Virus record (IMG/VR): IMGVR_UViG_3300045988_099112
Span: 1 to 12,650 of that record
Reading direction: 5' to 3' (one strand)
Length of the DNA stretch: 12,650 nt
Source of the DNA: a virus
Shown: positions 1 through 12,650 of the stretch, in pieces
Numbering within the stretch: position 1 is the first letter of the stretch
Layout: each line of letters opens with the position of its first letter
Made by a program: the position numbers and the translations under genes
The notes under the pieces: model-generated
Databases searched by the model: none
Seen by the model: only the letters and a program-made list of their open reading frames with translations
What the model was told of the DNA's origin: nothing

Positions 1-290
1 GGGATTATGATATTAAAAATCAACAAAGATTTCCCACATAACACTGTTATGTTGTAACAGTTTGCACAAATTATCTTTTGTCAATATGAAATTGTAACAA
101 ATTTATCATCATGTCTTTGTTCATATTGCACAAAACAGTTGAATGCACAACTAGAACAATTCAAACGATAACGACTCTATTTAGAAGTTGTCTGACATTA
201 TGTTAAAATAGATCAATTTCTGCGAGCACCACCATAAATTAGTTAAAATAATCACTTGACAAATTGAAATTAGTTGTTCTAGAAATATGT
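1..290. repeat. Left inverted terminal repeat (ITR) of a linear, protein-primed genome
   Basis: Bases 1-290 match the reverse complement of 12361-12650. A hand, ungapped alignment gives 17 substitutions (positions 54, 72-76, 114, 124, 135, 145, 175-177, 196, 198, 264, 284). The first 53 nt are identical, and similarity stops abruptly after 290. No ORF is present. The terminus starts GGG. Confidence 0.92.
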
Positions 291-330
291 ATGATATATT
301 TTTGTATATAATATTTATGCACAGTGTCAA

Positions 331-381: not shown

Positions 382-939
382 ATGAACCCATTTTTGACAC
401 CGGAATATATACGGAACAATATGACGGAGAAAGAAGCAAGAAAAACATATAGCCGTTTACGAAAAAATGTGCAAAAGCGACTTAAAAGATTAGGCGAAAC
501 CGAATTTAAAAAAACGCCTGTCTATCAACAGAATAGAAAAGGTTTTCCGCGCTTGAAAGATATAGCACAGCGTGACTTGCCATACTACTTGACACAAGTA
601 TCTGATTTTTACTTTTCTAAAAGCGCAACACTGCGCTATCAGAAAAAACAGAAGCGCGAAAATTTAAGATCGTTTAAAGCAAAGGGGTTTAATATCAAAG
701 AAAGTGACTATTGGGATTTTATTGCTTTTTTAGATGAATGGCATGAAAACAATTTGGAAAGATTATATGGTTCAGAACGCGTATTCGAATTATTTGAGAA
801 TATGAAAGAAAAAAATATAGGCGCTGACGATATAACTAGAAATTTTGAAAAATGGCTAGAAAAGTCTAATGATTTAGAAGATATTGAGACGGTAAGCGGA
901 GCGGGAGCGGAATATTATCGGGAGAAGCTAGGCATATGA
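382..939 (+). CDS. Putative terminal protein (replication primer), 185 aa
   Basis: SD GAAAGGAAGTG lies 5 nt before the ATG. The stop overlaps the polymerase start (ATGA at 936-939), implying translational coupling. The N-terminal half is very basic (RKTYSRLRKNVQKRLKRL) and the C-terminus is acidic. The gene sits immediately upstream of a protein-primed PolB, as in phi29 (gene 3 then gene 2). From memory of phi29 TP there is local resemblance (basic N-terminus; SATLRYQKK versus ...NMRYQFEK...). The family has no diagnostic motif, so the function is inferred. Confidence 0.55.
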   Translation: MNPFLTPEYIRNNMTEKEARKTYSRLRKNVQKRLKRLGETEFKKTPVYQQNRKGFPRLKDIAQRDLPYYLTQVSDFYFSKSATLRYQKKQKRENLRSFKAKGFNIKESDYWDFIAFLDEWHENNLERLYGSERVFELFENMKEKNIGADDITRNFEKWLEKSNDLEDIETVSGAGAEYYREKLGI

Positions 940-3041
940 TACACGTTAAAAATGAGACGATTTACGAATATGAAAAAGACGATATAACGCCTATTTATTA
1001 TTATGTCCGCGATTGTGATATAATTAAACGTCCGCGCGGTAATCAGCGAACTAAAAACAGCCACTTTTATTATAAGGATATAGTAGCTACGTTTGATATC
1101 GAGACAAGTCGCTTTACCGAAAAGAACGCTCCACGCGCAGATCTGATAGATCAATCTTTTTGTTATATATGGCAGATGTCGTTTAATAATGAATATGTGA
1201 TAGTAGGCAGAACGCTAAATAGCGCATTAGATTTTTTTACTCAAATTGACAAAAATTTAATGCGTGACGAACGCCTTGTTTGTTATGTCCATAACTTAAG
1301 TTACGAGTTCCAGTTTTTAAGCGGCATAGCCCGTTTTAAAACTGAGGACGTTTTTTGCATTAAAAAACGCAAGATATTAAAAGCCCTATTATGGGATACG
1401 TTTGAATTTAGATGTAGTTATCTACACGCTAATATGGGGCTAGCTCTATATACAGAAAAAATGCAAGTTGAACATGCTAAATTAGACGGTGTGCAATTTG
1501 ATTATAGTAAGTTACGTTACCCTTGGACACTATTAACAGATTACGAGATACTATATAGTGTGTATGATGTTATGGGTTTAGTTGAGTGTATCAAAAAAGA
1601 AATGGAAATGGACGGTGATACACTATATACTATTCCCTTAACGTCAACCGGTTATGTAAGACGTGACGCTAAAGAATCGTTAAAAAAGCTAGGAAAAAAC
1701 TATCTTAAGAATATGGAGATAGACTATCATATCTATGAGTTACTGAAAGAAGCATTTCGAGGTGGCGACACTCACGCTAACAGATATTTTAGTGGGAAAA
1801 TAATTGAAAACGTGCATAGTGCAGACAGGTCTAGCAGTTACCCAGATGTGTTAATTAACGGTCAGTTTCCAATGTCTCAATTTGCACCGCTAGAAAATCC
1901 AAATACCGAAAAAGTAATTAAATACCTCACACAATACAAGCGTGCGCTCTTAATGCGTGTACGCTTTAAAAACGTGTGTCTACGGCGCATAGACCACGGC
2001 TGTCCATATCTAACTAAAGACAAATCCAGACACATTAAAAATGCCACTTTTGATAATGGCAGAATCCTTGAATGTGAAGAAATGGAAACTACTCTCACCG
2101 ACATTGATTTTAAAATCGTGCTCAAAGAATATGATATAGAGTGTATGGAATTTAGTGAGGTATACCATGCTAGATACGGAAACTTACCGGAAGAACTAAA
2201 AGACGTAGTACGCACATACTACGTCAGAAAAACAGAATTAAAGGACATAGACGGGAAAGAAGTTTTTTACACTAAAGAGAAAAACAAGCTAAATGCGTGC
2301 TACGGCATGATGGCACAGGACGTTGTGAAGATTGCTATACTATTTAGTGACGAGTACGAAAAGCTATACGCCGAGGACGAAACGGACGATAAAGAAGCTA
2401 ACTTTGAAAAAAACAATAGCAAACGCTTTTTAAGCTACGCATGGGGCGCATGGTGTACCGCATTAGCACGCCACGCTCTACACGCCGCCATTTGGATAGT
2501 AGAGGATACACCAGACGCATACTTTTTGTATTGCGACACTGATAGCGTTAAATATATTGGCGATGTAGACCTCACTCCCTTTAATAGAAAGGCATTGTCA
2601 GATAGTAAAAAGAATAAAGCATTTGCAACAGACAAACATGGCGTCACTCATTACATGGGTGTTTACGAACAAGAACAGGATATGCTCCGTTTTAAAACGT
2701 TAGGCGCTAAAAAATACGCGTATGATGCAGTTAATAAAAAAGGCGAAAAAGAATTGCACTTGACACTTGCCGGAGTATCTAAAAAAGACGGCGCTACATA
2801 TTTAGCCGAGCATGGCGGTTTGGAATCCTTTTGTGACGGCTTTACTTTTCCGGAAAACGGTGGCGGCGGCAATGAAGCTGTCTATAACGATAGGACTAAT
2901 ACTACTATTAACATAGACGGCCACACATTGGCTGTTAGTCGAAATGTGTGTATTAAAGAATCTACTTATACACTAGGCTTGACACCGGAATACTCGGAGC
3001 TGTTAGATGGTTACAAAGAATACAACGTTTTACCGTTCTAA
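936..3041 (+). CDS. Protein-primed family-B DNA polymerase (phi29 gp2-like), 701 aa
   Basis: Exo I is FDIETS (D54/E56, nt 1095-1103). Exo II is HNLSYEFQF (nt about 1290-1316). Exo III is YSVYD. The pre-motif A region AFRGGDTHAN parallels phi29 YAYRGGFTWLN. Motif A is DRSSSYP (compare DVNSLYP) and motif B is KEKNKLNACYGMM (Kx3NSxYG type). Motif C is YCDTDS (nt 2529-2546). The KxY motif is LGAKKYAY, followed by LTLAGVSKK (compare phi29 VKCAGMTDK). Confidence 0.95.
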   Translation: MIHVKNETIYEYEKDDITPIYYYVRDCDIIKRPRGNQRTKNSHFYYKDIVATFDIETSRFTEKNAPRADLIDQSFCYIWQMSFNNEYVIVGRTLNSALDFFTQIDKNLMRDERLVCYVHNLSYEFQFLSGIARFKTEDVFCIKKRKILKALLWDTFEFRCSYLHANMGLALYTEKMQVEHAKLDGVQFDYSKLRYPWTLLTDYEILYSVYDVMGLVECIKKEMEMDGDTLYTIPLTSTGYVRRDAKESLKKLGKNYLKNMEIDYHIYELLKEAFRGGDTHANRYFSGKIIENVHSADRSSSYPDVLINGQFPMSQFAPLENPNTEKVIKYLTQYKRALLMRVRFKNVCLRRIDHGCPYLTKDKSRHIKNATFDNGRILECEEMETTLTDIDFKIVLKEYDIECMEFSEVYHARYGNLPEELKDVVRTYYVRKTELKDIDGKEVFYTKEKNKLNACYGMMAQDVVKIAILFSDEYEKLYAEDETDDKEANFEKNNSKRFLSYAWGAWCTALARHALHAAIWIVEDTPDAYFLYCDTDSVKYIGDVDLTPFNRKALSDSKKNKAFATDKHGVTHYMGVYEQEQDMLRFKTLGAKKYAYDAVNKKGEKELHLTLAGVSKKDGATYLAEHGGLESFCDGFTFPENGGGGNEAVYNDRTNTTINIDGHTLAVSRNVCIKESTYTLGLTPEYSELLDGYKEYNVLPF

Positions 3042-3043
3042 TT

Positions 3044-3089
3044 TTGTGCATTTTTCCGGTATTGCAAAATGAACCCATAGTGCTATAAT
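3044..3089 (+). promoter_or_regulatory. Promoter module copy 1 (drives the 94-aa and 122-aa genes)
   Basis: TTTTGTGCA box (3042-3050), -35 TTGCAA (3062-3067), 16-nt spacer, extended -10 TGcTATAAT (3081-3089). The block 3041-3110 is repeated at 4877-4945, including an identical TATAATAATACTTGTAAG. Confidence 0.75.
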
Positions 3090-3162
3090 AATACTTGTAA
3101 GAAAGAGAGGTAATAAAATGTATATAGCGACCTAGTGGCTTATACGGGAGAAAGGAAACAAT

Positions 3163-3449: not shown

Positions 3450-3818
3450 ATGAGAAATTACGAATTTTTAAAATCTGGTGAGGTATTAAGTGGGCTTGAC
3501 AAATACCGCTACTCACAGGGCGCGGAGAACATCAAATTAAAAGATGTAGCCGGAGATAAAATTGTAGTGAAAAATTATGCTACAATGTTGCAGAAAAATA
3601 TTGAGGAAGAAAGCGGGGAGGTTACGGATGAAAAGCTGTTACTTGCTATTGAGGATATAAACGGCAAGGTGTATGTTACAAATAGCGCGACTACTCGTGA
3701 AGCTTTCGCAAATATTGTCAAGTTTTTAGAAGATGATGGAGTAACAACCGGTTTTGAAATCAAGGTTGTCACCGGAAAATCGAAGAACGACCGTGAATTT
3801 GTCACGGTCACATTATAA
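3450..3818 (+). CDS. Putative single-stranded DNA-binding protein (phi29 p5-like), 122 aa
   Basis: SD GTGAGGAA is present and the start lies 2 nt after the upstream stop. The size matches phi29 p5 (124 aa). The C-terminus GKVYVTNSATTREAFANIV...FEIKVVTGKSKNDREFVTVTL resembles the remembered phi29 p5 GSLYSAISKTVAEAASDLI...FKVKVVQGTSSKGNVFFSLQLSL. Confidence 0.55.
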   Translation: MRNYEFLKSGEVLSGLDKYRYSQGAENIKLKDVAGDKIVVKNYATMLQKNIEEESGEVTDEKLLLAIEDINGKVYVTNSATTREAFANIVKFLEDDGVTTGFEIKVVTGKSKNDREFVTVTL

Positions 3819-3831
3819 AAAACAGACTTAT

Positions 3832-3857
3832 AAAGCCCGCCTAGAGCGGGCTTTTTT
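3832..3857 (+). terminator. Rho-independent terminator
   Basis: AAAGCCCGC-ctaga-GCGGGCTTTTTT. The core is a 6-bp G:C stem (3835-3840 / 3846-3851) extended by 3 A:U pairs, with a 5-nt loop and a T6 tract. It starts 14 nt after the stop at 3818. Confidence 0.85.
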
Positions 3858-4876: not shown

Positions 4877-4880
4877 TTTT

Positions 4881-4923
4881 TTGTGCATTTTGTATATTGT
4901 AAAACAGGCAATTCTGGTATAAT
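4881..4923 (+). promoter_or_regulatory. Promoter module copy 2 (drives the two small terminal genes)
   Basis: TTTTGTGCA box (4879-4887), -35 TTGTAA (4897-4902), 15-nt spacer, extended -10 TGgTATAAT (4915-4923). This is a direct repeat of the 3041-3110 module. Confidence 0.7.
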
Positions 4924-4976
4924 AATACTTGTAAGGAAGATATACAAAAAACAACATGAAAAGGAGAATGAAGAAT

Positions 4977-5412: not shown

Positions 5413-5443
5413 TAGAGATCGCACTTTTATAGCGCGATCTCTA
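5413..5443. terminator. Bidirectional rho-independent terminator between the convergent arms
   Basis: Perfect 10-bp stem TAGAGATCGC (5413-5422) / GCGATCTCTA (5434-5443) with an 11-nt loop. It is flanked by a T-rich run on the + strand (TACTTTTATTT) and by an A-rich run upstream (GGAAAAAG), which reads as U-rich on the - strand. It lies between the stops at 5400 (+) and 5453 (-). Confidence 0.8.
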
Positions 5444-9864: not shown

Positions 9865-11031
9865 CTACTCTAATAAAAATACAACGGCGTTTTCCGTAAA
9901 ATCGTTCCAATAGCGATCGGTGAAATGAAAGTAGATATTTGAGTAACCGCCCGCCGCATTAAACGGTGTAGTAGCAGTCCACTGATTAACTACTGTATAG
10001 CCCATAGCTTCTACATCACACATAAGCCCGAATACGTTTGACGTAACAACCGCTTCTTCCTCGACTTTGGTCGTTCCGTCCGGCAAGAGATACTCCGGTT
10101 TATTGTTAATACCCATAGGTGTATCAATGGACTGCCAAAAGTTGACCTGCTCAGTGTATGCCAACTTGAGAAAATCGGGGTTGAATACATCAGAAAGAAC
10201 GGAAGTTCTAATGTTGTTTAACTCCGGCGAATATAAGTAGAGTGACTGCATACTTGGCGGAGTATGGCGTGCGATCTCATGATCTGTGACGTTAATGTGG
10301 TATTTTACGGTTCTTTCAGTCAGCAGTGAAGAGATAGTGGAAAGGTAGCCGTACATCCATTTTACAAATGGAACGAAATTCTGCGGCTGTTTAACGGTGT
10401 CGGGTGTGAGTGCCGCCCCTGTCATATCGTTATAAACAGTGACTAACTTAATTACATTCGGAGCGTCGCCTTTTACTTTGCCGTTGATAAAGTTAGCTAC
10501 GGTAGCTCTAGCAAGTGATTCGTGCGCCTGTTCGATTGTATCGGACAAATTCTGTGCCACCATTGCGAGAAAACGCCCGAACTCTTCCATGCTTGAAAAA
10601 GCGACATCTAACTGATCGCGGAATACTGTATAGTGCGTCTGAAAAGTTTCCTGTCCATACATGTTGACCTGTAATACTTTTGGTTTTCGCACTTTATACA
10701 TGTCAACTGAGACATTATCTTCCAATGTATAGCGCTGATCGTCCTCAAACGGAAGATCGGATAAATTAAGTTTGCGGACGTGATTTCCGTAGCGAATTGA
10801 GTCAGCTTCGAGCCCCTTAAATTTACGAGTATACGGGCGAACAGAAAAGATTGTGCGCGACAACACCTGTGAGATTGCTTTAAGTGTGACGTCATAGTCC
10901 TTTTTTAAAACTGTAGTAGCAACGCTGACAAAGTTTTCCGGTGTCACGGTGCCGATCACTTTTGAGCCTGTTACCTGTGCTAATACTTCATTAAGCACTG
11001 CGCTTGTCTGTTCGATTGTAAGTGTATTCAT
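9865..11031 (-). CDS. Major capsid protein (phi29 gp8-like, HK97 fold; no Ig-like extension), 388 aa
   Basis: SD AGAAAGGAAGTGA is present and the start overlaps the scaffold stop (TAATG). The N-terminal region VLSRTIFSVRPYTRKFKGL parallels phi29 [25 protein letters not shown]. The C-terminus YSNIYFHF...FTENAVVFLL parallels YWNYYYHVWQ...RFANAVAFV. Confidence 0.85.
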   Translation of the reverse strand: MNTLTIEQTSAVLNEVLAQVTGSKVIGTVTPENFVSVATTVLKKDYDVTLKAISQVLSRTIFSVRPYTRKFKGLEADSIRYGNHVRKLNLSDLPFEDDQRYTLEDNVSVDMYKVRKPKVLQVNMYGQETFQTHYTVFRDQLDVAFSSMEEFGRFLAMVAQNLSDTIEQAHESLARATVANFINGKVKGDAPNVIKLVTVYNDMTGAALTPDTVKQPQNFVPFVKWMYGYLSTISSLLTERTVKYHINVTDHEIARHTPPSMQSLYLYSPELNNIRTSVLSDVFNPDFLKLAYTEQVNFWQSIDTPMGINNKPEYLLPDGTTKVEEEAVVTSNVFGLMCDVEAMGYTVVNQWTATTPFNAAGGYSNIYFHFTDRYWNDFTENAVVFLLE

Positions 11032-11339
11032 TATTTTTCACTTCCTTTCTGTGGCGGATTGATAATTGACGCTAGCGCTTCATCAGCAGTCATAGCTTTA
11101 GGTTGTTCGGAATGCATGATAGCGTTAGACTGTACCGCTTTTGTGAGCGCTTCGATCTGCGCGCCTAAATCGTATGGATTCTGCTGTGTAGGGATCTGCT
11201 GTGTCGGGATCTGCTGTGTCGGGATCTGCTGTGTCGGGATCTGCTGTGTCGGGATCTGCTGTGTCGGGATCTGCTGTGGCTCTGTTTTTTCCGCTAACGC
11301 TAACGCTAAGAGTGCGTTAAAAAGATTCTCTGTTTTCAT
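11031..11339 (-). CDS. Putative scaffolding protein with (IPTQQ)x6 tandem repeat, 102 aa
   Basis: A small protein immediately upstream of, and coupled to, the capsid gene, as phi29 gp7 (98 aa) is. Helix-prone flanks (FNALLALALAEK, LGAQIEALTKAVQ) surround a Q/P-rich repeat. I see no sequence similarity to gp7, so the assignment is positional. Confidence 0.5.
   Translation of the reverse strand: MKTENLFNALLALALAEKTEPQQIPTQQIPTQQIPTQQIPTQQIPTQQIPTQQNPYDLGAQIEALTKAVQSNAIMHSEQPKAMTADEALASIINPPQKGSEK
11176..11280. repeat. 15-bp tandem repeat (about 7 units) inside the scaffold gene
   Basis: GGGATCTGCTGTGTC occurs five times perfectly (11191-11265). Degenerate units flank it at 11176-11190 (GGATTCTGCTGTGTA) and 11266-11280 (GGGATCTGCTGTGGC). 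The repeat is in frame and encodes IPTQQ repeats on the - strand. Confidence 0.95.
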
Positions 11340-11936
11340 TTAAAAATGTCCTTTCTTTAAATAATTGTTTACAAGTGACTGCACTTTTGAGTAACTATAT
11401 CCCATTGCAGTTACTTTTTTACGGCGACTTTCGCCATTGCCGTATAAGCCTTTAATACAGTTAGTTGCGACTTCTCTGTATTTGCTTTCGCCAGGCTCTG
11501 TATTGGCAATGATATTGCCGGATAAAAAGAGTGCTTTTTCTGCTTCACGTCTTTTAACGAGTCCGGTAAGTTTTCTACCTCCGGCATGGCAGTAGCGAGG
11601 CATAGCTTCTGCGATCTCTTTTCGCGACCTTTTCCCATTTGCTACCAATTTATTAAGATTTCCCGCGCCTAAATTAAAAACAAAAGATACAAGCGCGTCA
11701 AATTCTGACTGGCTAAAGTGATATGTATTATACCATTTGTTTACTGCATTTTCTGCGGTAACAACATCCGCACGCAGAAAAGCATCTGCCTGTTCGATTG
11801 TGATTTTCTGATTTCTGCGGACGTTTATTGTATGCCCGTAACCGATCGTAAGAGTGCCGCCCGCGTCAGCATATGTTGTCAAACGCAAACCCTCAAAAGA
11901 TTTGATAAGATTAAGACCGACCTCACTGCATTTCAT
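11340..11936 (-). CDS. Endolysin: GH24 (T4/lambda-type) lysozyme domain plus one C-terminal CW_7 (Cpl-7-type) cell-wall-binding repeat, 198 aa
   Basis: The start is at ATG 11936 (SD GGGGGTGAT). GLNLIKSFEGLRLTTYADAGGTLTIGYGHT is the GH24 catalytic signature (E, D, T). The C-terminal REVATNCIKGLYGNGESRRKKVTAMGYSYSKVQSLVNNYL fits the CW_7 repeat consensus (GxWGNGxxRkxxLgxxGYdYxxVQxxVN). Confidence 0.9.
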   Translation of the reverse strand: MKCSEVGLNLIKSFEGLRLTTYADAGGTLTIGYGHTINVRRNQKITIEQADAFLRADVVTAENAVNKWYNTYHFSQSEFDALVSFVFNLGAGNLNKLVANGKRSRKEIAEAMPRYCHAGGRKLTGLVKRREAEKALFLSGNIIANTEPGESKYREVATNCIKGLYGNGESRRKKVTAMGYSYSKVQSLVNNYLKKGHF

Positions 11937-12144
11937 TATTATCACCCCCAATTTTAGATACGATCTTTTCGAGCGCAATAGTATTTCTTTCTAATACATC
12001 GCGCAATTTTGACACCTCTTCTGTGTGTTCTTTCTGAATTTCTTTCACATAACCAGCCATACAAATACAAGCGGCAATCGGAAAAGCATAGTTTCCGATT
12101 AATGTTGGCACGTCAAGTGTTGCACCGATCATGTTAAATAACAT
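11923..12144 (-). CDS. Holin, BhlA/UviB-like (single N-terminal TM helix plus charged coiled C-terminus), 73 aa
   Basis: The start is at ATG 12144 (SD AGAAAGGAAG, 6-nt spacer); the longer ORF to 12198 lacks an SD. The hydrophobic stretch LIGNYAFPIAACICMAGYV is followed by KEIQKEHTEEVSKLRDVLERNTIALEKIVSKI, as in BhlA-family holins. The gene overlaps the endolysin start by 14 nt. Confidence 0.7.
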   Translation of the reverse strand: MLFNMIGATLDVPTLIGNYAFPIAACICMAGYVKEIQKEHTEEVSKLRDVLERNTIALEKIVSKIGGDNNEMQ

Positions 12145-12249: not shown

Positions 12250-12279
12250 ATTTTAGAGCTGTGTTGTTATTTCTGTCAA
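12250..12279 (-). promoter_or_regulatory. Late-operon promoter (leftward)
   Basis: On the - strand: -35 TTGACA (12279-12274), 18-nt spacer, -10 TAAAAT (12255-12250). Upstream is TTTTGTGCAATTTGTATATTG, nearly identical to the upstream part of promoter module copy 2 (TTTTGTGCATTTTGTATATTG). It is the only promoter-like site upstream of the 6.7-kb leftward operon. Confidence 0.65.
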
Positions 12280-12284
12280 TATAC

Positions 12285-12322
12285 AAATTGCACAAAATTA
12301 GCGCACTTGTTTTGTGCAATTT
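12285..12322. promoter_or_regulatory. Perfect 13-bp-arm inverted repeat (putative operator/activator site or AT-rich hairpin terminator)
   Basis: AAATTGCACAAAA (12285-12297), 12-nt spacer, TTTTGTGCAATTT (12310-12322). The proximal arm lies 5 nt upstream of the late -35. Each arm contains the TTGTGCAA octamer, which also occurs in the ITRs and, as TTGTGCA, at both internal promoters. Confidence 0.6.
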
Positions 12323-12360
12323 TATTCTCTCAATATGTTTCACAATTATAAGCATAAAAT

Positions 12361-12650
12361 ACATATATCTAGAACAACTAATTTCATTTTGTCAAGTGAT
12401 TATTTTAACTAATTTATGGTGGTGCTCGCAGAAATTGATCTATTTTAACATATTTTCAGACAACTTCTAAATAAGCTCGTTATCGTTTGAATTGTTCTAG
12501 TTGTGTATTCAACTGATTTGTGCAATGTGAACAAAGGCATGATGATAAATTTGTTACAATTTCATATTGACAAATTGATATTTGTGCAAACTGTTAAAAC
12601 ATAACAGTGTTATGTGGGAAATCTTTGTTGATTTTTAATATCATAATCCC
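12361..12650. repeat. Right inverted terminal repeat (ITR)
   Basis: Reverse complement of 1-290 (about 273/290 identical by hand count). The window ends ...ATAATCCC, the exact complement of the first bases GGGATTAT. Confidence 0.92.

What the first reader, a model, noticed from the sequence alone, without database searches (positions are those of the whole stretch)
1..290. Long (290 bp), imperfect ITRs with a perfectly conserved 53-bp tip and a GGG terminal reiteration
The two ITRs together make up about 4.6% of the genome, far more than the 6-bp ITR of phi29. The 17 differences between the copies all lie beyond position 53. The terminal 53 bp therefore appear to be kept identical, which fits a minimal replication origin corrected by the replication mechanism, while the inner ITR drifts. 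The 5' ends start GGG, so the template 3' end is CCC. Terminal base reiteration is the hallmark of the sliding-back or jumping-back initiation used by protein-primed polymerases (phi29 AAA, PRD1 GGGG). This predicts initiation opposite an internal C with dGMP linked to the terminal protein.
Basis: partly seen in the sequence, partly recalled or inferred. Interest (0 to 1): 0.65.

Follow-up and report, generated by a model that had tools for sequence, protein, structure and literature searches.

The report
Imperfect terminal repeats of small gut phage
The window is the complete linear genome of a small phi29-like gut phage whose 292-bp end repeats look like ordinary replication origins plus duplicated promoters, and the differences between the two ends come from strain-to-strain recombination, not slow drift.

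Summary
Bases 1-292 and 12359-12650 are inverted repeats, with 17 ungapped differences in the first 290 bases, none before position 54. Both ends start GGGATTATGA.

The window is a complete 12.65-kb phi29-like podovirus genome. It has a protein-primed type B polymerase, phi29-type SSB, gp16 ATPase, connector and capsid protein.

GGG is very likely the true terminus: independent assemblies stop at the same base, and distant isolates start GGGAT/GGGTT with 171-219-bp ITRs. That fits sliding-back initiation with dGMP, which remains untested.

The "protected 53-bp tip, drifting interior" idea is not established:
- A clean first 53 bases has P of about 0.03-0.09, and the longest clean block is internal (199-263).
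- The tip varies between strains at positions 14, 21, 45 and 48.
- The whole ITR is more conserved (87-94%, mostly 90-94%) than most genes (mostly 67-90%).
- Most left/right differences are alleles shared with other strains, arranged as a mosaic.
- The two arms differ from each other as much as from other strains' arms, while sister strains have nearly perfect ITRs.

Sliding-back can only check the first 1-3 bases. Cp-1 shows the same layout. This is a new member of a known kind.

The parts
1..292 (+). Left inverted terminal repeat (ITR).
   Evidence: It aligns to the reverse complement of 12359-12650 at 94-95% identity. Similarity is lost after about 292-297.
12359..12650 (-). Right inverted terminal repeat.
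   Evidence: Same alignment. The L029 assembly reproduces the differences at 264 and 284.
1..3 (+). 5'-GGG terminal reiteration, mirrored at 12648-12650 on the minus strand. The template 3' end is therefore CCC.
   Evidence: The same first bases occur at contig ends in L017 and L011, and internally in L026. Distant isolates DU_PP_III and Phanie also start GGG(A/T)T.
1..53 (+). Tip block identical in both arms (mirror 12598-12650). It is the presumed core replication origin.
   Evidence: No mismatch in this block. Between strains it varies at 14, 21, 45 and 48. It is not significantly cleaner than the rest of the ITR.
43..61 (.). Short palindrome ACTGTTA-N5-TAACAGT (mirror 12590-12608). The first left/right difference, position 54, lies in its loop. 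It is a candidate protein-binding site or hairpin of unknown role.
   Evidence: Read directly from the sequence. Predicted as a hairpin. Strain changes at 45 and 48 keep only G-U pairing on the minus strand.
62..134 (+). Two direct copies of TTGCACAAA, at 62-70 and 126-134 (mirrors 12581-12589 and 12517-12525). Candidate binding sites for a phage DNA-binding or regulatory protein.
   Evidence: There are 6 exact copies in the window, all near the ends, against 0.3 expected and 0 of 200 shuffles reaching 6.
180..209 (+). Inward-facing promoter-like site TTTAGA-18-TAAAAT with a TG extended -10 (mirror 12471-12442).
   Evidence: Consensus scan. TGTTAAAA is invariant and TGTTAAAAT is kept in most ITR copies. 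Function is not tested.
256..285 (+). Inward-facing -35 TTGACA (256-261) with a weak -10 at the ITR boundary (mirror 12395-12366). This is one of the best-conserved blocks of the ITR.
   Evidence: Read from the sequence. Only 2 of 20 columns vary in 241-260. Cp-1 has an annotated -35 at 222-227 inside its 236-bp ITR, with its mirror-image counterpart at the right end.
382..939 (+). 185-aa candidate terminal protein. It lies immediately upstream of the polymerase gene and overlaps it.
   Evidence: No Pfam or PHROG hit. No similarity to the Cp-1 or phi29 terminal proteins. It is homologous to the gene upstream of the polymerase in Astrithrvirus, Amedibacillus-phage and other small phi29-like genomes (hhalign 97%, E=2e-11). 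The assignment rests on position.
936..3041 (+). Family B DNA polymerase of the protein-primed type.
   Evidence: PF03175 at 26.8 bits and phrog_1907 at E=2.5e-53. A profile of 12 relatives hits only the phi29 polymerase 1XHX/2EX3 in the PDB, E=2e-20. Exo and Pol motif residues are invariant.
3450..3818 (+). phi29-type single-stranded DNA-binding protein.
   Evidence: PF17427 at E=7e-8 and phrog_6243.
12250..12319 (-). Right-end unique region. It holds the strongest promoter-like site of the window (TTGACA-18-TAAAAT, 12279-12250). Just upstream is an inverted pair of TTGCACAAA (12288-12296 and 12311-12319).
   Evidence: Conserved in L011, L012 and L030.

Best explanation
The window is the complete linear genome of a small (12.65 kb) phi29-like podovirus from the human gut. 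It replicates by protein priming from both ends.

Each 292-bp ITR is a composite functional module. The outer bases, starting GGG, form the origin recognised by the terminal-protein/polymerase complex. Initiation is inferred to occur opposite an internal C of the 3'-CCC template, giving TP-dGMP that slides back, as in PRD1. The inner two thirds carry repeated TTGCACAAA motifs and inward-facing promoter elements. Duplicating them gives both ends the same early transcription and regulatory signals, as in pneumococcal phage Cp-1.

The ITR as a whole is under purifying selection. The 6% difference between the two arms of this genome is not slow decay. It is a mosaic of ITR alleles that circulate among co-occurring strains and are reshuffled by recombination, with breakpoints inside the ITR. 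Sister strains have near-perfect ITRs, so the arms are homogenised from time to time. The identical 53-bp tip is most simply explained by origin constraint plus the internal position of the exchanged patch. A replication step that corrects 53 bp is not needed.

Shown here: the repeat, the gene content, the conservation pattern, the shared alleles and the conserved GGG.
Inferred: covalent terminal protein, dGMP priming, promoter activity and the recombination history.
For: Repeat and coordinates.

phi29-like gene set: DNA_pol_B_2, Phi29 SSB, gp16 ATPase, connector and Phi29 capsid protein. The polymerase profile hits only the phi29 polymerase in the PDB, E=2e-20. A conserved gene sits upstream of the polymerase across the wider clade.

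True ends: L017 and L011 contigs end at the same GGG. DU_PP_III (GGGATATCC, 219-bp ITR) and Phanie (GGGTTATCC, 171-bp ITR) share the start. The rule that sliding-back needs a terminal reiteration, and the PRD1 3'-CCCC precedent, are in PMC4974454.

Whole-ITR constraint: the ITR is 87-94% identical between strains (mostly 90-94%), against 67-90% for most genes. For L026 the values are ITR 94%, terminal-protein gene 67%, polymerase 83%.

Shared alleles: at positions 54, 124, 135, 145, 196/198, 264 and 284, both window alleles recur in other strains.

Mosaic: the window's left arm differs from L011's right arm at only 4 sites in 1-171, and from L026's left arm at only 4 sites in 146-288.

No within-genome similarity excess: window left vs right is 16/283. 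Window vs L026 is 15/283 and window right vs L033 is 14/254.

Intermittent homogenisation: strain L033/L034 has 1 difference in 249 and L031 has 2 in 157, against 13 in 110 for L011.

Promoter parallel: Cp-1 is annotated with a -35 inside its ITR, with its mirror-image counterpart at the right end, and has a perfect outer ITR (1-236) followed by an imperfect inner stretch to about 344. The TTGACA block is highly conserved.
Against: - No experiment or read-level data were available. A covalent terminal protein, blocked 5' ends, dGMP priming and transcription starts are all untested.
- The terminal-protein candidate has no detectable similarity to known terminal proteins, and its predicted structure was unusable (pLDDT 51).
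- The promoter scan found no more sites than shuffled sequence (43 against 39.5), so the promoter calls rest on conservation and on analogy with Cp-1.
- Only three strains give full tips, and no other genome has both tips assembled. Tip symmetry in relatives could therefore be checked only for positions 36-53 in one strain.
- All three between-strain tip comparisons differ by 1-3 bases, while the window's two tips are identical. This leaves room for an active tip-homogenising process.
Confidence: 0.72

Rival explanations
1. The terminal 53 bp are actively kept identical by the replication mechanism, while the inner ITR is free to drift neutrally after duplication.
For: There is no left/right difference before position 54. 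Tips of different strains differ by 1-3 bases while the two tips of this genome are identical. Cp-1 has a perfect outer and an imperfect inner ITR. From my own knowledge, adenovirus can repair damaged ends from the other ITR through panhandle intermediates. That gives a conceivable tip-inward correction route.
Against: - Sliding-back only rechecks the reiterated 1-3 nt (PMC4974454).
- The clean tip has P of 0.03-0.09, and a longer clean block lies at 199-263.
- Difference density is 10% in 54-198 but 2% in 199-292. This is not a tip-inward gradient.
- The inner ITR is more conserved than most genes, and most differences are shared alleles, not private mutations.
Confidence: 0.15
2. The strong conservation of the ITR reflects an RNA gene inside it, for example a divergent packaging RNA (pRNA) like the one near the left end of phi29. 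On this view the ITR is not simply origin plus promoter sequence.
For: The genome encodes a gp16-type packaging ATPase and connector, which use a pRNA in phi29. No pRNA was found anywhere else in the window. An outward-facing promoter-like site at 337-308 on the minus strand could transcribe through the left ITR.
Against: - No Rfam hit to pRNA was found, even at E up to 10.
- Folding of either strand is no better than shuffled sequence (z = -1.6 and -0.95).
- A 7-sequence alignment gives 0 compensatory pairs among 60 predicted pairs.
Confidence: 0.08
3. The ITR or its exact ends are assembly or library artefacts, for example an inverted-duplication chimera or added G residues.
For: The sequences come from metagenome assemblies. 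Most relatives' contigs are truncated inside the ITR. One contig (L026) carries 38 extra bases before GGG.
Against: - Partial ITRs appear at both ends of independent assemblies (L011, L012, L029, L031, and L033 with L034).
- The two arms are imperfect, with reproducible differences, which a chimera would not produce.
- The same terminal base is reached in separate assemblies.
- Cultured isolates of the sister group have 171-219-bp ITRs starting GGG.
Confidence: 0.03

Closest known systems
Streptococcus phage Cp-1 (Salasmaviridae, Cepunavirus) ITRs
   Same: Both are phi29-like podoviruses that use protein priming. Both have a long ITR: Cp-1 has 236 bp perfect, then an imperfect stretch to about 344 bp. 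In both, the outer part is identical and the differences lie further in. Both carry an inward promoter -35 element inside the ITR, with its mirror-image counterpart at the right end, and both have a 3-nt terminal reiteration. The window's lysin also carries a CW_7 repeat. To my knowledge that repeat was first described in a lysin of the related pneumococcal phage Cp-7.
   Different: Cp-1 ends in AAA (TP-dAMP), not GGG. Its genome is 19.3 kb and has a different gene order. Its terminal protein shows no detectable similarity. The window's arms begin to differ already at position 54.
Astrithrvirus-like small phages (Pectobacterium phage DU_PP_III, Acinetobacter phage Phanie)
   Same: Genomes are 11-12 kb with the same order of terminal-protein-like gene, polymerase and ATPase. 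ITRs are long (219 and 171 bp) and start GGGAT/GGGTT. The gene upstream of the polymerase is homologous.
   Different: The polymerase is only about 31% identical. The hosts are Gram-negative. Their ITRs are perfect, and there is no ITR sequence similarity beyond the first 5 bases.
PRD1 (Tectiviridae) stepwise sliding-back initiation
   Same: The template 3' end is a run of C, so the primer nucleotide is dGMP. A terminal reiteration allows sliding-back (PMC4974454).
   Different: PRD1 is a tail-less membrane-containing virus with four C residues, not three. The initiation site in the window phage is untested.
phi29 (Salasvirus) replication origins
   Same: Same polymerase family, SSB family, packaging ATPase, connector and capsid fold families.
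   Different: The phi29 ITR is only 6 bp (AAAGTA). No pRNA or p6 homologue is detectable in the window.
Guelinviridae (Clostridium perfringens phages; Amedibacillus phages AD70P2/P3 as labelled in GenBank)
   Same: These are the nearest classified isolates by polymerase (35-37% identity). They have small genomes (12.2-12.3 kb for AD70P2/P3) and gut or sewage Firmicutes hosts.
   Different: Published Guelinviridae ITRs are 25-30 bp (PMC3362512). AD70P2 shows 55 bp. Sequence divergence is large, and family membership was not tested.

Membership tests
phi29-like, protein-primed tailed phages (Salasmaviridae / Guelinviridae / Astrithrvirus assemblage) | Family B DNA polymerase of the protein-primed type (PF03175, phi29-like) | tested here: met
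   PF03175 scores 26.8 bits against a cut-off of 25.8, and phrog_1907 gives E=2.5e-53. The profile of relatives hits only the phi29 polymerase in the PDB, E=2e-20. That alignment runs from ExoIII to motif C, across the regions that hold TPR1 and TPR2 in phi29.
phi29-like, protein-primed tailed phages | Terminal protein gene next to the polymerase gene | tested here: inconclusive
   A 185-aa ORF lies directly upstream and overlaps the polymerase start. It is conserved across the clade. It has no similarity to the phi29 or Cp-1 terminal proteins, and the structure model was too poor to use.
phi29-like, protein-primed tailed phages | Linear genome with inverted terminal repeats | tested here: met
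   292-bp ITR. Independent contigs end at the same base.
phi29-like, protein-primed tailed phages | Protein covalently bound to the 5' ends | not testable with these tools
   This needs protease-dependence or exonuclease-protection experiments.
phi29-like, protein-primed tailed phages | phi29-type morphogenesis module (gp16 ATPase, connector, capsid protein) | tested here: met
   PF05894 at E=6e-20, PF05352 at E=1e-13 and PF25622 at E=2e-14.
phi29-like, protein-primed tailed phages | Packaging RNA (pRNA) | tested here: inconclusive
   No Rfam pRNA hit and no structured or covarying RNA in the ITR. Divergent pRNAs are not expected to match the Rfam model.
Sliding-back (or stepwise sliding-back) initiation | Reiteration of at least 2 identical nucleotides at the template 3' end | tested here: met
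   GGG at both 5' ends. It is conserved in relatives and in distant isolates. The requirement is stated in PMC4974454.
Sliding-back (or stepwise sliding-back) initiation | Initiation opposite an internal template nucleotide, followed by backward translocation | not testable with these tools
   This needs in vitro TP-dNMP assays with mutated template ends.
Guelinviridae (formal taxon) | Clustering with the family by ICTV genome or proteome criteria | not tested
   Only polymerase identity was measured: 35-37% to the Amedibacillus phages labelled Guelinviridae. The closest relatives are unclassified metagenomic genomes.
Adenovirus-type ITR homogenisation through panhandle intermediates | The two ITR copies of a genome are kept identical by copying from one end to the other | tested here: inconclusive
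   The arms are near-identical in L033/L034 (1/249) and L031 (2/157). They are as divergent as between strains in the window (16/283) and L011 (13/110).

The most novel reading that the evidence does not exclude
In this clade of gut phages the two genome ends behave as semi-independent modules that are swapped between co-circulating strains. The extreme tips would nevertheless be re-homogenised within each genome by an end-repair process, such as a panhandle or template switch that copies one tip from the other. No such process has been described for phi29-like phages. The window would then be caught midway, with tips already equalised and the interior still heterozygous.
Probability: 0.12. 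Interest if true: 0.55.

Novelty: new member of a known kind. Interest (0 to 1): 0.3.

Why it matters
The window gives a well-defined example of replication ends for an uncultured lineage of very small (about 12.6 kb) phi29-like phages that recurs in human gut metagenomes. It makes a concrete, testable prediction: TP-dGMP priming on a 3'-CCC template.

The comparison across strains shows that an imperfect ITR is not a reliable sign of neutral decay. Here the ITR is among the best-conserved DNA of the genome, and the asymmetry between its arms records recombination between strains.

There is also a practical point. Most relatives' contigs recovered here are truncated inside the ITR, which complicates completeness calls and end-based classification of such phages.

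None of this changes the current understanding of protein-primed replication.

Tried and rejected
1. A megablast of the whole window against GenBank phages found nothing. Relatives had to be found through proteins.
2. An exact search for the 28-nt tip in IMG/VR found nothing, because the relative L011 differs at position 21.
3. A metagenome scan with the polymerase returned only contigs already found. Genome-collection scans with the polymerase and with an ITR motif found nothing, so no host or prophage link emerged. A 17-nt ITR motif scan in IMG/VR gave only L011 and L012 plus chance hits.
4. pRNA or another structured RNA in the ITR: no Rfam hit, non-significant folding and no covariation. 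The idea is not supported, though not excluded.
5. Terminal-protein identification: Pfam at a relaxed threshold, AlphaFold with a 6-sequence alignment (pLDDT 51, too poor for a fold search) and hhalign against the Cp-1 and phi29 terminal proteins all failed. Only positional and clade-wide homology remains.
6. A single-sequence search of the polymerase against the PDB found nothing. A profile was needed.
7. Two further contig look-ups in the wider clade (L037, L040) gave no ITRs and no extra information on termini.
8. The Cp-1 genome paper (PMC190243) is not held. Statements on Cp-1 therefore rest on its GenBank annotation and my own comparison of its ends.
9. GGG as a library artefact was considered and rejected, because it recurs in independent assemblies and in cultured isolates.

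Full report
**Observation.**
The first 292 bases of the window and the reverse complement of the last 292 form an inverted terminal repeat. Tool and script comparisons agree on this (blastn E=1e-129). In ungapped register there are exactly 17 differences within the first 290 bases: 54, 72-76, 114, 124, 135, 145, 175-177, 196, 198, 264 and 284. None lies before position 54. Both 5' ends read GGGATTATGA. With gaps allowed, the two clusters become compensating 1-nt indels, which leaves about 12-13 events. Similarity ends at 292-297. An independent assembly of the same strain (L029, 100% identical apart from one short stretch in the 15-nt tandem-repeat region) reproduces the left/right differences at 264 and 284. 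They are therefore real.

**What the molecule is.**
The window encodes the following genes:
- On the plus strand: a 185-aa protein, a 701-aa family B polymerase (PF03175, phrog_1907), a phi29-type SSB and a gp16-type packaging ATPase.
- On the minus strand: tail proteins, a phi29-type connector, a phi29-type major capsid protein, a lysozyme with a CW_7 repeat and a small membrane protein.

A profile of the polymerase and 11 relatives matches only the phi29 polymerase among all PDB sequences (E=2e-20). The Exo I-III and Pol A/B/C motif residues are invariant. Both gene blocks are transcribed inward from the ends. This is a complete, very small phi29-like podovirus genome.

Its nearest database relatives are:
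- uncultured human-faecal phages (polymerase 42-47% identical);
- Amedibacillus phages labelled Guelinviridae (37%);
- Clostridium phage HM2 (35%);
- Astrithrvirus-like phages of Gram-negative bacteria (31%).

**Are the ends real?**
Contigs from separate assemblies end at exactly the same base. L017 ends at GGG, and the right end of the IMG/VR contig L011 reads GGGATTATGATATTAAAAATT. Cultured isolates of the distant sister group have annotated or detectable long ITRs that also start GGG. DU_PP_III starts GGGATATCCGCC with a 219-bp ITR. Phanie starts GGGTTATCCGCC with a 171-bp ITR. A terminal reiteration of at least two nucleotides is the stated requirement for sliding-back. PRD1, with 3'-CCCC, initiates at the fourth C (PMC4974454).

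The terminal protein itself is only a positional candidate. The 185-aa ORF has no Pfam or PHROG hit and no similarity to the Cp-1 or phi29 terminal proteins, and its structure model was unusable. It is, however, homologous to the gene that precedes the polymerase throughout the wider clade (hhalign 97%, E=2e-11).

**Is the 53-bp tip special?**
Statistically, barely.
- With 12-17 events in 290 positions, a clean first 53 has P = 0.03-0.09. A clean run of that length somewhere occurs in 47-82% of simulations. The longest clean run is internal, 199-263.
- Three strains give full tips (window, L011, L026), and three more copies start at 31-36. The tip is polymorphic at 14, 21, 45 and 48.
- Variable columns are 3/53 in the tip against 30/231 further in. 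This trend toward conservation is not significant (Fisher p=0.16).
- Mechanistically, sliding-back rechecks only the reiterated bases, so it cannot explain 53 identical bases.

**Does the inner ITR drift?**
No. Between strains the ITR is 87-94% identical (90-94% in all but L021 and the partial left arm of L011), whereas most genes are 67-90% identical. For L026 the ITR is 94%, the terminal-protein gene 67% and the polymerase 83%. The ITR is therefore among the most constrained DNA in the genome.

Its best-conserved blocks include:
- the TTGCACAAA motifs, with 6 exact copies in the window, all terminal, against 0.3 expected;
- a block at 146-171;
- an extended -10-like TGTTAAAAT at 201-209;
- a TTGACA at 256-261 just inside the ITR boundary.

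Cp-1 is annotated with the same arrangement. It has a -35 box at 222-227 inside its 236-bp ITR, with its mirror-image counterpart at the right end (-35 at 19117-19122). Its ends are perfect to 236 and then imperfect to about 344. I found no support for an RNA gene in the ITR: there was no Rfam pRNA hit, folding was non-significant, and 0 of 60 predicted pairs covaried.

**Where do the left/right differences come from?**
At positions 54, 124, 135, 145, 196/198, 264 and 284, both alleles seen in the window also occur in ITR copies of other strains. The pattern is mosaic. The left arm differs from L011's right arm at only four sites in 1-171. It then switches to resemble L026's left arm, with four differences in 146-288. 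The right arm carries the L033/L026 alleles at the diagnostic sites, plus a few private changes.

The two arms of the window differ at 16/283 sites. That is no less than window against L026 (15/283) or the window's right arm against L033 (14/254).

Other strains give contrasting results:
- L033 and L034 are 100% identical over 4.7 kb and supply the right and left ends of one strain. Its arms differ at 1 site in 249.
- L031's arms differ at 2 in 157.
- L011's arms differ at 13 in 110.

Genome-wide identity is patchy in the same way. Segments of 95-100% identity sit within genomes that are otherwise about 80-85% identical.

The simplest reading is that ITR arms are normally kept similar, while frequent recombination among co-circulating strains, with breakpoints inside the ITR, creates heterogeneous arms such as the window's. 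Difference density is 10% in 54-198 and 2% in 199-292. That fits an exchanged internal patch better than a tip-inward correction gradient.

**What stays open.**
All three between-strain tip comparisons differ by 1-3 bases, yet the window's two tips are identical. With so few tips this could be chance, origin constraint, or a real tip-homogenising process such as panhandle-type end repair. I give that last reading roughly 12-15%. It cannot be tested here, because most relatives' assemblies are truncated inside the ITR. No other genome has both tips.

**Comparison and verdict.**
Functionally and architecturally this is the ITR of a protein-primed phi29-like phage. In layout it is closest to Cp-1, and in terminal sequence to the Astrithrvirus-like isolates. 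The feature is real and correctly described. Its length and imperfection have precedents. The GGG/sliding-back inference is reasonable. The "corrected tip, drifting interior" model is replaced by "constrained composite ITR with recombinational mosaicism". The novelty class is a new member of a known kind, and interest is modest.

Noticed in passing
window 11165-11299 (ORF 11031-11339, minus strand): A 15-nt tandem repeat encodes seven PTQQI units in a 102-aa protein next to the capsid gene. The only region where L029, an independent assembly of the same strain, fails to align with the window (100 nt in L029 against 15 nt) falls within this repeat. The copy number therefore probably differs or was collapsed during assembly.
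   Followed up: partly
L030 1-55 and its right end; L012, L023, L024, L026, L027 upstream of the terminal-protein gene; window 289-299: In most relatives the inner border of the ITR runs into a tandem array of the 9-nt unit ATGATATAC (about 3-6 copies, present at both ends of L030). The window keeps only one unit on the left and none on the right. This is an iteron-like element of variable copy number and unknown role.
   Followed up: partly
window 62-70, 126-134, 12288-12296, 12311-12319, 12517-12525, 12581-12589; variants at 3043-3051 and 4880-4888: The motif TTGCACAAA occurs six times exactly, only near the ends (0.3 expected). One occurrence is an inverted pair just upstream of the strongest promoter-like site (12279-12250). 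One-mismatch copies (ATGCACAAA) lie 9-11 nt upstream of two similar internal promoter-like sites (3062-3089, 4897-4926). It may be an operator for a phage regulator.
   Followed up: partly
L026 1-38: This contig carries 38 nt before the GGG terminus. They duplicate its own sequence just upstream of the terminal-protein gene, in the same orientation. It is probably a chimeric read or assembly artefact and not a concatemer junction.
   Followed up: no
window about 3830-3857 (plus strand) and 5413-5443: A strong intrinsic terminator hairpin (GCCCGC...GCGGGC followed by T6) lies between the SSB and ATPase genes. It produced a spurious sub-threshold Rfam Trp_leader hit. A 13-bp stem terminator sits where the two convergent gene blocks meet.
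   Followed up: no
window 11340-11978 (minus strand): The endolysin combines Phage_lysozyme with a CW_7 cell-wall-binding repeat. This points to a Gram-positive (Firmicutes) gut host. No host link was found in the genome collection.
   Followed up: partly
whole window compared with L021, L025, L012: The genomes are strongly mosaic. L021 is 97-99% identical from the polymerase to the ATPase but 81-87% elsewhere. L025 is 94-100% identical across the tail, collar and connector genes but 73-88% across the replication genes. Recombination among co-circulating strains is frequent.
   Followed up: partly
window 3081-3117 and 4915-4951: Two 37-nt direct repeats (81% identical, TG-TATAATAATACTTGTAAG...) form near-duplicate promoter and leader regions. 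They lie ahead of the 94-aa ORF/SSB operon and ahead of the small ORFs after the ATPase gene.
   Followed up: no
L001 (MT835998) 171-251 and its right end 1-81: A more distant relative (polymerase 47% identical) also has an imperfect ITR, with 5 mismatches in 81 nt. Its right end is truncated by about 170 nt. Imperfect ITRs are therefore not confined to the window's species group.
   Followed up: no
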